The position numbers and the translations under genes are program-made. The notes beneath the pieces were generated by a model that saw nothing but the letters and a program-made list of their open reading frames with translations, was not told where the DNA came from and searched no databases. This document shows, one piece after another, positions 2,825 through 41,227 of a stretch of 42,526 nt of DNA. This DNA comes from a virus: UHGV virus genome UHGV-0239872. The stretch is one strand, 5' to 3'. How positions within the stretch are numbered: the first letter of the stretch is position 1; every line of letters begins with the position of its first letter.

Positions 2825-3214
2825 TTACTCCACTACCCAAAACAGTTCACCGTCATAAGTCCAAGCGGTATGCTGCCCGGCTTCCATCTGCTCGCCTGTT
2901 TTGCTGACCAGCTTGCCAGCAGGCTTGCCCGGATACGGTGAATCCATGAAGATTGCATCATCATCTTTGGTCACTACCATGATGCAGTCCTGTTCAAAGG
3001 CTTTACAGAACAGCTTAACAGCCTGTCTGATTTCGTAGATTCCATCGACAGGAAAGACCATGCTTAACTCATACGCATTGTCGAACTTGCCTGTCAGTGT
3101 GACCGGAATCACTCCGAACATATCCTGCACCGTTCGCAGTGCCTTGCAATGAAGCGCCAGATTAACACACTCAGCGTTTCCCTGACGATATGCGCTTGCA
3201 TAGATACGGTACAT
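2825..3214 (-). CDS. hypothetical early protein (129 aa), first clear early gene downstream of the promoter cluster
   Basis: ATG 3212-3214 with TGGAGAAA SD. Confidence 0.5.
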   Translation of the reverse strand: MYRIYASAYRQGNAECVNLALHCKALRTVQDMFGVIPVTLTGKFDNAYELSMVFPVDGIYEIRQAVKLFCKAFEQDCIMVVTKDDDAIFMDSPYPGKPAGKLVSKTGEQMEAGQHTAWTYDGELFWVVE

Positions 3215-3687
3215 AGTTATTTCTCCAGTTGTTGGCTATTTTCAGGTGGATAGTGAACCCATTGTGACGCGCCGTACAGTCTGCACTCAGTGGCATTGAT
3301 TGGCTTGTCGGATTCACTACCCTGAAAAATCGCCCCGCCCATTTCGCGCTGTGAGTCACCACTCACTCTCAGGAGTCCTTTAGCAGTCCGTCGCGTATCT
3401 TGCTCACCGTTGCCAGCTAACAAGCCGTTTGACTACCCACCTACTACCCTCCGCGCCTTATAAGACGTTCGGTATTGTGCTGATACTGCGCTGCGTCTAT
3501 CGCGCTTCTCCGTTACCTTGCATCAGGCGCTACCCCTACGGCGTTAGCAATGTTGCGATACCGTTGCCTTTCGGCGATGCCTCACCCAGTTCCAACCTGC
3601 GGCGGATACCCAGTGAGCCGTGACACTACGCGGCCAGTTTGCGTTCACTCAGAGCAGGATGCTTTCCATCCTTTCAACTCGGTGCTG

Positions 3688-3716
3688 ATTACAACACAGT
3701 GTATTCAGCTTGTCAA
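3688..3716 (-). promoter_or_regulatory. sigma70-type promoter A (minus strand: TTGACA-N17-TGtTGTAAT, extended -10)
   Basis: rc of 3711-3716 is TTGACA; rc of 3688-3693 is TGTAAT; 17-nt spacer; TG at -15/-14. Confidence 0.6.
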
Positions 3717-3767
3717 CTACTTTTTACTTCTGACTGACTGGCTTGCTGCCCTGTCAATCTGGTGTGC

Positions 3768-3796
3768 ATTACAGCATACTCGTTTCATCCTGTCAA
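3768..3796 (-). promoter_or_regulatory. sigma70-type promoter B (TTGACA-N17-TGcTGTAAT)
   Basis: same module as A; part of the repeated unit ATTACAGCATA...CTGTCAAC on the plus strand. Confidence 0.6.
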
Positions 3797-3905
3797 CCGA
3801 TTTAATCAGCGCCCGTTCAGAGTTAATTAAACCGTACCAGTTAGCCTGCGCGGGTGTTAACGTGTTTATCCATCACTATTCGGCTTGTCTGGCTGACGTG
3901 GAAGC

Positions 3906-3934
3906 ATTACAGCATAGTGAGCTTGCCTTGTCAA
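3906..3934 (-). promoter_or_regulatory. sigma70-type promoter C (TTGACA-N17-TGcTGTAAT)
   Basis: same module; 17-nt spacer. Confidence 0.6.
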
Positions 3935-4006
3935 CACACCAGATTGTTAAAGAGCAGTGCTACCGTTCAATCTTGTCTACTGGGCTAGTGCCTTTCGACG
4001 TGATGA

Positions 4007-4036
4007 ATTACAGCACATAACCAAAACAGTTTGCAA
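4007..4036 (-). promoter_or_regulatory. sigma70-type promoter D (TTGCAA-N18-TGcTGTAAT) with AT-rich UP-like sequence upstream
   Basis: rc of 4031-4036 is TTGCAA; rc of 4007-4012 is TGTAAT; AT-rich 4037-4060. Confidence 0.5.
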
Positions 4037-4164
4037 GTATTATTTTCAAGAAAAGTGATAAGTTACTGTAATCATTAGGATTAAAGTTTGATTAGATAAT
4101 CACAACACTGGATAGAATACCGTTAGATTACCATGAATAAATCCTTATAAATCAATGATTAAAT

Positions 4165-4182
4165 GAAAGTAACTATAGTGAT
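4165..4182 (-). promoter_or_regulatory. candidate phage-RNAP promoter core (minus strand ATCACTATAGTTACTTTC, contains the SP6/T7/K11-type CACTATAG)
   Basis: exact 18-nt repeat of 26325-26342 in opposite orientation; sits in a roughly 180-bp AT-rich island between the terminus-like repeats and the sigma70 promoters, a position analogous to T7 phiOL. Confidence 0.4.
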
Positions 4183-4199
4183 AGATATCGCTAGATAGC

Positions 4200-4660
4200 T
4201 GTCAGCGAGCGCGGCGCAGCCGAAACAAGCGAGCGCGGAACGGCAACGGATGGAATCCGACAGGATGACAGGCGGCAGACAGTGAACGCAGTAGACAGAG
4301 TGTAGGACAGTAACAGCAGGTAGCAGAGCATGACGCGCAGAGCTGGAGGCGCAGACAGTAGACCAGCAGACAGGACAGCACCACGCAGCACCACCGCCAC
4401 CACACAGCACCACGCCGCGCCACGAAAAGAGACAGATACCCGCACGACCACGCGCAGCACGCAGCACAGCACAGCCAGCGCAGAGCGTCCCCATAGGACA
4501 GCACCGCACAGCACAGCCAGCAGGACAGCGCACAGCACGACACACGGCAGACGATGAAACGCGACACGCACGAGCTATACCGCACGCAGGCAATCCTTTC
4601 GACGCGCCGCGCAGCGCACGCGAGCAATTATCGCGCACGTCGCGAGGCTAAACCGCGCAC
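4200..4660. repeat. T-depleted (plus strand almost only A/C/G) CA/GCA-rich low-complexity tract with short imperfect direct repeats; candidate genome-terminus or terminal-repeat-adjacent repeat array
   Basis: T is about 3-8% over about 450 nt; CACAGCACAGCCAGC occurs twice (4465-4479 and 4507-4521); AGGACAGCAC occurs at 4372-4381 and 4496-4505, with a degenerate AGGACAGCGCAC copy at 4522-4533; junk ORFs in all six frames. Confidence 0.5.
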
Positions 4661-4777
4661 ACGCTATGGGGGCACGCGCGGTCATTTGGGTCGAGGGAGG
4701 GGCAAGTATAAACGTGCAATTTTCAAGCCGGGGTATTGCACCCACGGCCTGTTCATTGCCTCAGCTTTTGGATACCC

Positions 4778-5314
4778 CTACAGCGTCGCACAGTAAGCGC
4801 TACAGCGTTTTGCACGAGCAACCAAGGCATCCCTATAGCGAACCACTGTCGGGGCTGTAGAAGCCTTTAGGAACGCAATACGAAGGTCACAGATGGCTGC
4901 TGCTGCGGAGTGAGGTTCCAGACGTTTGGCTGCTGCCACGGTAGCAGGGCCAACAATCCCGTCTTGTGCAACGCCGCATACCCGCTGTAGAGCTTTCGCC
5001 GCACGGGAGACACCGGAGTTGACACCGTAGTCAAACACGGCACATGCAATCGCAGGGTGAAGTTCGTCACCTCGGATGGGGGTGTAGTAATCCCGTCGAT
5101 AGATTGCTTCGGCTTGTGCTTTGGTGAGCTGCTTGATAGGTACACAAATAGTGCCGCCAAGCCCAGTAGGGACACCACAAGCTCTGCCATCCAGTTTGCC
5201 ATCACGAGCGTCACTAATTCCATGATTCGTTTCCCCTCCGGTATCGCCGGGCAGCTTGGTGTAACCACCTTCTGCCAGCCCGGTGAACCGCATACAGATT
5301 TCAAAGTTAGTCAT
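4778..5314 (-). CDS. endolysin: GH108 N-acetylmuramidase-like catalytic domain plus PG_binding_3 domain; no SAR or signal sequence
   Basis: TGLAEGGY...DTGGETNHGIS matches the GH108 EGGY motif; C-terminal ...FDYGVNSG...DGIVGPAT matches PG_binding_3; last gene before the non-coding terminus region. Confidence 0.8.
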   Translation of the reverse strand: MTNFEICMRFTGLAEGGYTKLPGDTGGETNHGISDARDGKLDGRACGVPTGLGGTICVPIKQLTKAQAEAIYRRDYYTPIRGDELHPAIACAVFDYGVNSGVSRAAKALQRVCGVAQDGIVGPATVAAAKRLEPHSAAAAICDLRIAFLKASTAPTVVRYRDALVARAKRCSAYCATL

Positions 5315-40560: not shown

Positions 40561-40752
40561 CTACGCCGGAATAACATTACGGACTATGCGTTGCAGGTCT
40601 TCGAGTTTACTCTCGGCCTCCCACTTTGTATCACGCACAGCCAAAGGTTTATTCGGCTGGAGTTTATTAACAACCCACCAGAATAATCCGGTGGGTGATT
40701 TGATTACGGCCAGCTTAGTGTCGCGTTGCATTCTTCGACTCCAGCATTGCAC
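40561..40752 (-). CDS. hypothetical protein (63 aa, start uncertain)
   Basis: ORF overlapping the upstream gene by 17-38 nt. Confidence 0.3.
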   Translation of the reverse strand: MQCWSRRMQRDTKLAVIKSPTGLFWWVVNKLQPNKPLAVRDTKWEAESKLEDLQRIVRNVIPA

Positions 40753-41227
40753 GAATCATTTCTTCAACGTTACCCTTGAGGGTACGAATCGTTGTGTTAA
40801 TGAACTCACCCACGAACAGCAGACCCAGCGCAGTCTCGCTGATATCCTTCGGCACGTTGGAGCACGCCATGTACCAGTCGTGGTATCGCTCAGCAATATC
40901 CTTGCTCGACATGGCCTGCGCCGCTATCTTGCCAGCCAGACGCAGCTCGACCTGTGCTTCTTCATCGCCAGCAGCCTGCGCCACCCGCATGTTCATGCCG
41001 ATGATGACGCTGACGTTGCGAGCCAGCAGCGCACCAGTACGAGTGGCCGGGATAATATTCAGTGCCGCCTCTTTACCAGCACGCACCGCGCCGATGTAGC
41101 TTTGCTTCGGCATGTACCCGCCTTTGTACTCAATGATTTCACTGAGCATCGGCTCGCTGTCGATGTGCTCAGCCAGCAGCTTGATTACTTCCAACTGCTT
41201 AGGGTTAAATGTTTTGAAGTCAATCAT
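40715..41227 (-). CDS. hypothetical protein (170 aa)
   Basis: ORF in operon context. Confidence 0.45.
   Translation of the reverse strand: MIDFKTFNPKQLEVIKLLAEHIDSEPMLSEIIEYKGGYMPKQSYIGAVRAGKEAALNIIPATRTGALLARNVSVIIGMNMRVAQAAGDEEAQVELRLAGKIAAQAMSSKDIAERYHDWYMACSNVPKDISETALGLLFVGEFINTTIRTLKGNVEEMIRAMLESKNATRH

What the first reader, a model, noticed from the sequence alone, without database searches (positions are those of the whole stretch)
4200..4660. Extreme strand-compositional anomaly: about 450 nt nearly devoid of T with CAG/CAC-type short repeats, a candidate terminal-repeat or packaging region
Between the end of the lysis genes and the AT-rich promoter region the plus strand is almost pure A/C/G. 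It contains reiterated short motifs such as AGGACAGCAC and CACAGCACAGCCAGC (at 4465-4479 and 4507-4521). T7-like genomes carry arrays of short repeats next to their direct terminal repeats that take part in concatemer processing and packaging. This tract sits exactly where the right-end/left-end junction of a T7-like genome is expected, so the window is probably a circularly permuted assembly with the DTR collapsed here. The purine/pyrimidine asymmetry could also support triplex or other unusual DNA structure.
Basis: partly seen in the sequence, partly recalled or inferred. Interest (0 to 1): 0.6.

Follow-up and report, generated by a model that had tools for sequence, protein, structure and literature searches.

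The report
Phage terminal repeat and A-poor leader
The T-poor stretch is the joined-up end region of a T7-like (phiKMV-type) E. coli phage genome: one copy of its roughly 250-bp terminal repeat plus about 230 bp of non-coding leader. This is ordinary in kind, but its one-strand avoidance of a single base is shared by several related phage genera and has no known explanation.

Summary
Window 4200-4660 has 6.3% T against 23% genome-wide. It holds the lowest 400-nt content of any base in the window and the four longest T-free runs. The quoted repeats sit at the stated coordinates, and short repeats exceed shuffles.

The window is a circularly permuted, complete Bonnellvirus genome (Autographiviridae, phiKMV-like), with genes on the minus strand. 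Its relative J8-65 has an annotated 259-bp direct terminal repeat (DTR). The J8-65 left end aligns to window 4694.

Two markers found at mapped ends of other Autographiviridae are present. CCCCCATAG lies 23-31 nt from 4694. TATCTGTC plus a T-run (4438-4424, minus strand) lies at the expected inner boundary.

I predict the following layout:
- 4431/4452-4694: DTR.
- 4200-4430: a fast-evolving short-repeat leader, comparable to T7's SRL (the short-repeat array left of its DTR).
- 4020-4199: an AT-rich spacer.
- 3688-4036: four sigma-70-type early promoters.

The tract is not coding and not triplex-forming.

The part not described in anything I found is the composition. The A-poor sense strand recurs in phiKMV, LUZ19, LKA1, LIMEzero and LIMElight, which share no obvious sequence similarity with it, and gain of T appears to be resisted. 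Its function is unknown.

The parts
4688..4700 (-). Predicted left genome terminus. On the plus strand the motif reads GGGTCGA|GGGAGG. The phage sense strand would start 5'-TCGACCC at window 4694.
   Evidence: Base 1 of J8-65 (TCGACCC...) aligns here. The motif is present in 15 of the 16 aligned Bonnellvirus sequences; Lidtsur differs at one base.
4664..4672 (-). CCCCCATAG on the sense strand, 23-31 nt from the predicted terminus. This is an end-proximal motif shared across Autographiviridae.
   Evidence: The same C-run motif lies 23-37 nt from the annotated left end in T7, T3, SP6, gh-1, KP34, phiKMV, LUZ19, LKA1, LIMElight and J8-65.
4445..4694 (.). Predicted direct terminal repeat, present once because it is collapsed in the assembly. 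The inner boundary is uncertain within 4431-4452, giving a length of 243-264 bp. The stretch 4540-4694 is the conserved part; 4450-4540 is variable and repeat-rich.
   Evidence: Homology to the 259-bp repeat annotated at both ends of J8-65 and the alignment of 16 relatives.
4424..4438 (-). TATCTGTCTCTTTTC on the sense strand. It is a conserved island at the inner edge of the repeat and resembles the T7 concatemer-junction pause signal ATCTGTT followed by a T-run.
   Evidence: The motif is unique in the genome. It is identical in the 13 main-group sequences and differs at one or two bases in J8-65, smaasur and Lidtsur. The annotated repeat ends are followed by ATCTGTT in T7 and T3. In gh-1 the repeat ends in TATCTGTC. 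In LKA1, KP34 and LIMElight a T-run motif follows.
4200..4423 (.). Unique left-end leader beyond the repeat. It is T-poor on the plus strand, rich in short repeats, evolves fast, and has little single-strand self-structure.
   Evidence: Composition; 10-11-nt and 1-nt indels among relatives; predicted DNA folding energy of -21 to -25 kcal/mol against -37 to -46 expected at this GC content.
4376..4424 (.). Period-10 tandem array, CAGCACCACG x5.
   Evidence: Tandem Repeats Finder. This is the site of most length variation among relatives.
4464..4521 (.). Two exact 16-nt copies of GCACAGCACAGCCAGC (4464-4479 and 4506-4521), inside the predicted repeat.
4020..4199 (.). AT-rich spacer (about 28% GC) between the leader and the early promoters. 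It occupies the same position as the AT-rich region that follows the phiOL promoter (position 405) in T7.
   Evidence: T7 annotation.
3688..4036 (-). Four sigma-70-type early promoters, each TTGACA or TTGCAA, then 17 nt, then TG-n-TGTAAT. They run 4036->4007, 3934->3906, 3796->3768 and 3716->3688. They are the counterpart of T7 promoters A1-A3.
   Evidence: Repeat family D3/D4 and motif coordinates. They are largely conserved in relatives. The generic promoter scan did not call them, because its rule requires A at position 2 of the -10 hexamer.
4717..4729 (-). GGCTTGAAAATTG on the sense strand. This element is invariant and lies 23-35 nt upstream of the predicted terminus, on the right-end side. 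It may be part of the cutting or packaging signal.
   Evidence: Invariant in all 16 aligned sequences, while its flanks vary. Unique in the genome.

Best explanation
The tract is the concatemer-junction region of a phiKMV-type podovirus of the genus Bonnellvirus. It appears once because the two terminal copies were collapsed in a circularly permuted assembly.

Layout, read on the phage sense strand (the window minus strand):
- The late operon ends at the endolysin stop (4778).
- The mature left end is at about 4694.
- A direct terminal repeat of about 250 bp runs down to about 4431-4452.
- A conserved TATCTGTC plus T-run motif follows.
- Then come about 230 bp of unique short-repeat leader, an AT-rich spacer, four host-type promoters, and the first gene (SAMase).

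The region most likely works as in T7, and every step below is inferred from T7 rather than shown here:
- The repeat lets replicated genomes join end to end.
- Terminase cuts at the two repeat boundaries, guided by the conserved end-proximal motifs.
- This end of the DNA enters the cell first.

The near-absence of A on the sense strand is a property of the whole non-transcribed leader in phiKMV-like phages, not of the repeat alone. It appears to be maintained rather than accidental. Its most visible physical consequence is that the leader strands can hardly fold on themselves. Whether that is the selected function is inferred, not shown.
For: Genome type, gene order and circular permutation.

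J8-65 has identical annotated 259-bp repeats at both ends. Its base 1 aligns to window 4694, and its repeat ends just before the conserved motif at 4424-4438.

The CCCC(C)RT.. motif lies 23-37 nt from the annotated left end in ten phages, and 23-31 nt from window 4694.

A pause-signal-like motif sits at the inner repeat boundary in T7, T3, gh-1, LKA1, KP34 and LIMElight (annotated repeat ends), and in SP6 if its repeat is 174 bp (a length I recalled, not annotated in the record). The literature describes the T7 concatemer-junction class II signal as a strictly conserved 7-base motif.

The tract is non-coding:
- 3 to 20 indels per pairwise comparison are not multiples of 3.
- All three sense frames are open only because there are no stop codons without A.
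- There is no Pfam hit above cutoff and no Rfam hit.

The composition is conserved:
- T is 5.5-8.4% in the other 14 aligned Bonnellvirus tracts, despite identity as low as 61%.
- The A-poor sense strand also occurs in phiKMV, LUZ19, LKA1, LIMEzero and LIMElight, with which I saw no sequence similarity (not aligned).
- C<->T differences number only 11-12 against 54-61 A<->G differences, although C makes up 34% of the tract. In the flanks the two are about equal.

The layout matches the annotated T7 left end: A0, phiOL, A1-A3, gene 0.3. T7 ejects about 850 bp of its left end first (PMC11863960).
Against: - No read coverage or virion-end data exist for this phage, and I did not find the method used for the J8-65 annotation.
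- The inner boundary falls in a variable zone, so it is known only to about +/-10 nt.
- The TATCTGTC motif matches only 6 of the 7 bases of the T7 signal. It degenerates in J8-65 (ATCTATC) and in LIMEzero. The hexamer ATCTGT occurs 9 times on the sense strand of the genome.
- The periodicity of the repeats is weak: lag 5 gives z 3.9 and lag 10 gives z 2.2, against z 8.7 for T7's 13-nt period.
- KP34 and SP6 show only mild A depletion and normal single-strand folding. T3, gh-1 and VP93 show no A depletion. The composition is therefore not required for the terminal-repeat mechanism itself.
Confidence: 0.8

Rival explanations
1. The strand asymmetry is only a by-product of the tract being built from expanding and contracting copies of a few short, non-self-complementary motifs (CAGCA, GACAG, CCACC). 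Such motifs could be protein-binding sites or slippage products. On this view no selection acts on base composition as such.
For: There is an excess of repeated 8-mers, and the 5-mers CAGCA (x12) and GACAG (x11) are frequent. Indels of 10-11 nt fall in the repeat zones. T7's array of CCTAAAG units is also asymmetric but lacks a different base, with G at 10-12%. The low folding energy is explained by composition alone, not by the arrangement of bases: z is about 0-1 against the tract's own shuffles.
Against: The depletion also covers the conserved, non-repetitive part of the repeat (4540-4660). The same base is missing in six genera whose motifs differ. C<->T differences are about three times rarer than A<->G after allowing for composition.
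Confidence: 0.3
2. The tract encodes a protein on the minus strand, as annotated in the relatives HHU8, forsur, ROV85, Kc261 and Lidtsur.
For: ORFs of 159, 126 and 141 aa lie on the minus strand. CDS features are annotated there in five relatives. There is a weak HTH_23 match at E 0.006, below the curated cutoff.
Against: All three frames are open simultaneously, simply because an A-poor strand has almost no stop codons. Every one of the 14 pairwise comparisons shows frame-breaking indels: 3-10 in close relatives and 18-20 in the J8-65 group. The annotated CDSs differ in frame and extent between records. The product would lack about half of the amino acids.
Confidence: 0.02
3. The tract forms triplex (H-DNA) or another purine/pyrimidine-driven structure.
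For: The plus strand is 60% purine. The sub-block at about 4255-4372 looked richer in A and G by eye, but I did not count it.
Against: The longest purine run is 9 nt and the longest pyrimidine run is 7 nt. No mirror-repeat homopurine tract exists.
Confidence: 0.02
4. The three-letter composition is a generic way of keeping the first-entering DNA free of restriction, Dam, or promoter sites before the anti-restriction SAMase is made.
For: A strand without T cannot hold any palindrome containing an A:T pair, nor EcoKI or EcoBI sites, nor a -10 box. This end enters the cell first in T7. The first gene is an anti-restriction SAMase.
Against: Palindromes of 4 bp are not depleted: 37 against 27 +/- 5, because CGCG and GCGC abound. 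The whole genome already lacks GATC, CCWGG and GAATTC, and it has no EcoKI site in its first 13 kb, all without any three-letter composition. The next 1 kb, which is also exposed before the SAMase acts, has normal composition.
Confidence: 0.08

Closest known systems
Direct terminal repeat of Escherichia phage J8-65 (Bonnellvirus J865, KM247287; repeat_region 1-259 and 40723-40981)
   Same: Same genus, the same position after the endolysin gene, and the same terminus motif TCGACCC. It is alignable over the whole region and has the same A-poor sense strand.
   Different: Identity within the tract is only about 66%, with many indels. The motif at the inner boundary reads ATCTATC rather than ATCTGTC. 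The ends of the window phage are predicted, not annotated.
Phage T7 left end and concatemer junction: 160-bp terminal repeat, the CJ class II pause site ATCTGTT, the SRL short-repeat array, phiOL with its AT-rich region, promoters A1-A3, and gene 0.3
   Same: The order of elements is the same one for one. CCCCCATAG lies about 25 nt from the end. An ATCTGT-type motif sits at the inner edge of the repeat. A short-repeat leader with little self-structure follows, then an AT-rich spacer, several strong host promoters, and an anti-restriction first gene.
   Different: T7's array is a regular 13-nt repeat of CCTAAAG and is G-poor rather than A-poor. From memory, T7 also has an array on the right side of the repeat (SRR); no counterpart exists here. 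No phage-polymerase promoter was identified in this window.
Left ends of phiKMV, LUZ19 and LKA1 (Krylovirinae) and of the Pantoea phages LIMEzero and LIMElight
   Same: The sense strand is A-poor from the terminus through the repeat (414, 472, 298 and 277 bp where annotated). The depletion continues for a further 150-400 nt and stops before the host promoters. Single-strand self-structure beyond the repeat is low.
   Different: I saw no obvious sequence similarity to the window tract apart from the short end motifs; I did not run an alignment. Their repeat motifs differ (CCCTGG, GCTGGGTTA), as do repeat lengths and hosts.

Membership tests
T7-type (Autographiviridae) direct terminal repeat / concatemer junction | Lies between the last late gene and the host-type early promoters of a unidirectional genome that encodes its own RNA polymerase | tested here: met
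   Gene order, relatives' annotation, promoters.
T7-type (Autographiviridae) direct terminal repeat / concatemer junction | The same sequence is physically present at both ends of virion DNA, with exact ends | not testable with these tools
   This needs reads or virion DNA. The homologous stretch of J8-65 is annotated as identical 259-bp repeats at both ends.
T7-type (Autographiviridae) direct terminal repeat / concatemer junction | C-run motif (CCCCCATAG or a variant) about 23-37 nt from the left terminus. This is my own empirical marker from ten phages with annotated ends, not a published definition. | tested here: met
   The motif is at 23-31 nt from window 4694.
T7-type (Autographiviridae) direct terminal repeat / concatemer junction | A phage-polymerase pause or termination signal (T7: ATCTGTT) at the inner boundary of the repeat | tested here: inconclusive
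   TATCTGTC plus TCTTTTC at 4438-4424 matches 6 of 7 bases and is followed by a T-run. gh-1 has the same TATCTGTC at its repeat end. The motif degenerates in J8-65 and LIMEzero, and pausing was not tested.
T7-type (Autographiviridae) direct terminal repeat / concatemer junction | Non-coding | tested here: met
   Frame-breaking indels; no significant Pfam hit.
T7 SRL/SRR short-repeat arrays | Many regularly spaced copies of one short motif next to the repeat | tested here: inconclusive
   Repeated 8-mers number 49 against 18 +/- 5, and a 10-nt unit occurs x5. But the autocorrelation is only z 2-4, against 8.7 in T7.
T7 SRL/SRR short-repeat arrays | Arrays on both sides of the repeat | tested here: not met
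   Only 83 nt (4695-4777) separate the endolysin stop from the predicted terminus, and they hold no array.
H-DNA / triplex-forming tract | A long homopurine-homopyrimidine mirror repeat | tested here: not met
   The longest purine run is 9 nt.
Known structured RNA families (Rfam) | A match to a covariance model | tested here: not met
   No match with E <= 1 in 3200-5000 on either strand.

The most novel reading that the evidence does not exclude
The near-absence of A on the sense strand over the first 500-800 bp is a selected, lineage-wide trait of phiKMV-like phages (Bonnellvirus, Waewaevirus, Limelightvirus, Phikmvvirus, Stubburvirus). On this reading, its function is to keep the leader's strands from folding on themselves when they become single-stranded, for example during end resection and annealing into concatemers, or during duplication of the terminal repeat. 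T7's G-poor SRL array would be a different route to the same property.
Probability: 0.2. Interest if true: 0.5.

Novelty: new member of a known kind. Interest (0 to 1): 0.3.

Why it matters
Practical value:
- The result fixes where this genome should be opened: the left end at about 4694, with a repeat of about 250 bp to be duplicated at the right end.
- It flags spurious "hypothetical protein" calls in five public relatives.

Scientific value:
- How T7-type terminases create exact terminally redundant ends is still described as poorly understood (PMC13595956).
- The two end-proximal motifs are shared across subfamilies. The composition rule is conserved and apparently maintained in phiKMV-like leaders. 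Both are concrete, testable handles on that question.
- They could also help predict physical ends from sequence alone in metagenomic Autographiviridae.

Tried and rejected
- **Triplex or H-DNA.** No purine run is longer than 9 nt.
- **Protein-coding.** Three frames are open at once, the indels break the frame, and there is no significant Pfam hit.
- **Known RNA family.** No Rfam match.
- **Restriction-site-free leader.** GC-only palindromes are enriched, and genome-wide site avoidance is achieved without this composition.
- **Chi or RecBCD protection.** There is no Chi site in the tract. All six Chi sites lie elsewhere, all on the sense strand.
- **Phage promoter repeated elsewhere.** The invariant element at 4717-4729 and the motif at 4424-4438 are each unique in the genome.
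- **Generic promoter and terminator scan.** It found nothing in 3200-5000. Its -10 rule excludes TGTAAT, so I identified the promoters by repeat structure instead.
- **Literature searches.** I searched on Bonnellvirus, phiKMV terminal repeats, the T7 SRL/SRR arrays, and skewed composition at phage ends. I found no description of the A-poor leader and no method for the J8-65 ends. The library lacks most older subscription papers (Dunn and Studier 1983; Lavigne 2003), so prior description cannot be excluded.
- **Metagenome survey anchored on the large terminase (TerL).** At 37-42% or higher TerL identity, some but not all contigs that contain the junction show an A-poor window about 1.8-3.3 kb downstream. 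Below about 35% identity the survey is uninformative, because ends and junctions are not defined.

Full report

- Window 4200-4660 contains 29 T in 461 nt (6.3%), with A 30%, C 34% and G 30%.
- Among all 400-nt windows, the T fraction averages 0.230 (sd 0.029). The minimum, 0.0525, is at 4193. No other base falls below 0.125 anywhere.
- The four longest T-free runs in the 42.5 kb (77, 60, 50 and 48 nt) all start within 4203-4495 and end by 4554.
- The quoted motifs are at the quoted coordinates.
- Repetition exceeds what composition explains. There are 49 repeated 8-mers against 18.3 +/- 5.3 in dinucleotide shuffles. A 16-nt exact repeat was reached in 4 of 1000 shuffles. There is also a 10-nt unit repeated five times at 4376-4424.
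- The asymmetry is A over T, not purine over pyrimidine. The plus strand is 60% purine and its longest purine run is 9 nt.

**2. What genome is this?**

- Long ORFs lie almost all on the minus strand, in the phiKMV-type order.
- The region 3500-5400 matches 20 phage records at 80-98% identity. Most are classified in Bonnellvirus (Autographiviridae): J8-65, Lidtsur, the other "-sur" coliphages, Kc261, RZ4 and ROV85.
- A 669-nt query spanning the window's last and first bases matches mellemsur and megetsur in a single piece at 96.9%. The window is therefore a circular permutation of a complete genome.

**3. Where are the ends?**

- J8-65 (KM247287) is annotated with a 259-bp repeat at both ends. 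I confirmed the two copies are identical.
- Its base 1 (5'-TCGACCC) aligns to window 4694 on the minus strand. Its left 2 kb is colinear with the window from 4694 down to 2701.
- In an alignment of 16 relatives, the plus-strand motif GGGTCGA|GGGAGG (4688-4700) is present in 15; Lidtsur differs at one base.
- The J8-65 repeat ends 14 nt before a conserved island. In the window this island reads TATCTGTCTCTTTTC on the sense strand (4438->4424).

Two independent markers agree with these positions.

- A C-run motif (CCCCCATAG or a close variant) lies 23-37 nt from the annotated left end in T7, T3, SP6, gh-1, KP34, phiKMV, LUZ19, LKA1, LIMElight and J8-65. It lies 23-31 nt from window 4694.
- The inner boundary of the annotated repeat is followed by:
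  - ATCTGTT in T7 and T3;
  - TCTGTTCGTTTG in SP6 (the 174-bp repeat length is recalled from memory and is not annotated in the record);
  - TGCCTCTTTTGCC in LKA1, TGCCTTGCTTATTTTGCG in KP34, and TGCCTTTTGTCG in LIMElight.
  - In gh-1 the repeat itself ends in TATCTGTC.
- In T7 this heptamer is the concatemer-junction class II pause/termination signal (Lyakhov 1997 and He 1998, as cited in the bioRxiv paper read).

From these I predict a repeat spanning 4694 down to 4431-4452, which is 243-264 bp.

**4. Anatomy on the phage sense strand**

| Element | Window coordinates |
|---|---|
| Endolysin stop | 4778 |
| Invariant GGCTTGAAAATTG | 4729->4717 |
| Left terminus | about 4694 |
| Terminal repeat | to about 4445 |
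| TATCTGTC + T-run motif | 4438->4424 |
| Unique short-repeat leader | 4423->4200 |
| AT-rich spacer (28% GC) | 4199->4020 |
| Four promoters, TTGACA/TTGCAA-N17-TGnTGTAAT | 4036->3688 |
| SAMase gene | 3214->2825 |

Sources. This mirrors the annotated T7 left end element for element: repeat, short-repeat array, phiOL with its AT-rich region, A1-A3, gene 0.3. In T7 roughly 850 bp of this end is ejected first, and host polymerase at A1-A3 then pulls in the rest (PMC11863960).

**5. The tract is not a gene, not a known RNA, and not triplex-forming.**

- Three minus-strand ORFs (159, 126 and 141 aa) overlap in all three frames. An A-poor strand has almost no stop codons.
- Five relatives annotate a hypothetical protein here.
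- Pairwise comparison with 14 relatives gives 3-23 indels each. Nearly all are 1, 10 or 11 nt, so they are not multiples of three.
- Pfam gives only a sub-threshold HTH_23 match. Rfam gives nothing.

**6. The composition is conserved and seems to be maintained.**

- All 16 Bonnellvirus sequences have a 300-nt window with 2-7% T at the same place. This holds although the tract is the fastest-evolving part of the region: 57% of its columns are polymorphic, against 23% next door (4695-4900). Identity to the J8-65 group falls to 61-66%.
- Between the window and the J8-65 group, only 18-20% of mismatches involve T, against 51-56% in the flanks. C<->T differences number 11-12 against 54-61 A<->G differences, although C is 34% of the tract. 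In the flanks the two classes are about equal. Low-complexity alignment may bias these counts somewhat.
- Beyond the genus, the sense strand is A-poor from the terminus in several phages, with which I saw no obvious sequence similarity and ran no alignment:
  - phiKMV: 4-11% A over 800 nt, repeat 414 bp.
  - LUZ19: 2-9% A over the first 700 nt, repeat 472 bp.
  - LKA1: 2-15% A over 500 nt, repeat 298 bp.
  - LIMEzero and LIMElight also show it.
- The depletion is mild in KP34 and SP6. It is absent in T7, T3, gh-1 and VP93.
- In each case the depletion extends well past the repeat and stops before the host promoters.
- In a TerL-anchored survey of metagenomic contigs, A-poor windows appear about 1.8-3.3 kb downstream of TerL in some contigs down to about 37-42% TerL identity.

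**7. A physical consequence**

- With DNA energy parameters, the 200-250 nt beyond the repeat fold far more weakly than genome segments of the same GC content. In the window the values are -21 to -25 kcal/mol against -37 to -46 expected (z +3.5 to +4.1).
- The same holds for J8-65, phiKMV, LKA1, LIMEzero and LIMElight. It also holds for T7's G-poor array (-1.7 kcal/mol over 200 nt), but not for KP34 or SP6.
- The first 200 nt or so of the repeat fold normally in the phages tested. The inner half of the phiKMV repeat (201-400) is an exception and is also weakly structured (z +3.9).
- The effect comes from composition, not arrangement: z is about 0-1 against each segment's own shuffles.
- So T7 and the phiKMV-like phages reach the same property, strands that cannot pair with themselves, by omitting different bases.
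- Whether this is the selected function (for example during end resection and annealing, or repeat duplication) or a by-product of arrays of short asymmetric motifs cannot be decided here.

**8. Rivals tested**

- The restriction-avoidance idea is weak. Four-bp palindromes are not depleted in the tract (37 against 27 +/- 5). The whole genome lacks GATC (0 against 155 +/- 12 expected), CCWGG (0 against 92 +/- 9) and GAATTC. The first EcoKI site is 13 kb in, all without any three-letter composition.
- There is no Chi site in the tract.

**9. Verdict**

- Its main interpretation, a collapsed terminal-repeat or packaging junction in a permuted T7-like assembly, is supported by homology and by conserved end markers. 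The physical ends of this phage remain to be measured.
- About half of the tract is repeat and the rest is unique leader. The triplex suggestion is rejected.
- In kind this is a new member of a known class.
- The conserved one-base avoidance of the leader in phiKMV-like phages was not described in any paper my searches reached. It is a modest but testable open point.

Noticed in passing
whole window: The 42.5-kb genome has no GATC (155 +/- 12 expected), no CCWGG (92 +/- 9 expected) and no GAATTC. This is extreme avoidance of Dam, Dcm/EcoRII and EcoRI sites.
   Followed up: partly
whole window (phage sense strand = window minus strand): All six Chi sites (GCTGGTGG) are on the sense strand and none on the other. 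The first EcoKI site lies 13 kb from the predicted left end.
   Followed up: no
window 3688-4036, minus strand: Four near-identical promoter-like units, each TTGACA or TTGCAA, then 17 nt, then TG-n-TGTAAT (an extended -10). They are largely conserved in relatives. The generic scan missed them because the -10 hexamer has G at position 2.
   Followed up: partly
relatives L006 806-1354, L012 1007-1522, L014 965-1357, L015 853-1392, L017 814-1221: The public records of HHU8, forsur, ROV85, Kc261 and Lidtsur annotate a 'hypothetical protein' inside the A-poor tract. These calls are probably artefacts of a strand that has almost no stop codons.
   Followed up: yes
PV874197.1 (BHUENT7), record ends; window about 4383: This 'circular' record starts inside the tract. 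Joining its two ends duplicates about 120 nt, so it probably carries an untrimmed assembly overlap.
   Followed up: partly
window 4717-4729: CAATTTTCAAGCC is invariant in all 16 aligned relatives, although the adjacent hairpin (4727-4748) is replaced in the J8-65 group. It is unique in the genome and lies 23-35 nt outside the predicted terminus.
   Followed up: partly
window about 3961 (alignment with Ec1-ASingh and BHUENT7): These two relatives carry an insertion of about 85 nt in the promoter region. It includes another TTGTCA-type element and may be an extra promoter unit.
   Followed up: no
window 4203-4660 compared with relatives: Length changes in the tract are concentrated at 10-11 nt, about one helical turn, and at 1 nt. 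Arrays in LIMElight and KP34 have 10-11-nt periodicity, SP6 has 12 and T7 has 13.
   Followed up: partly
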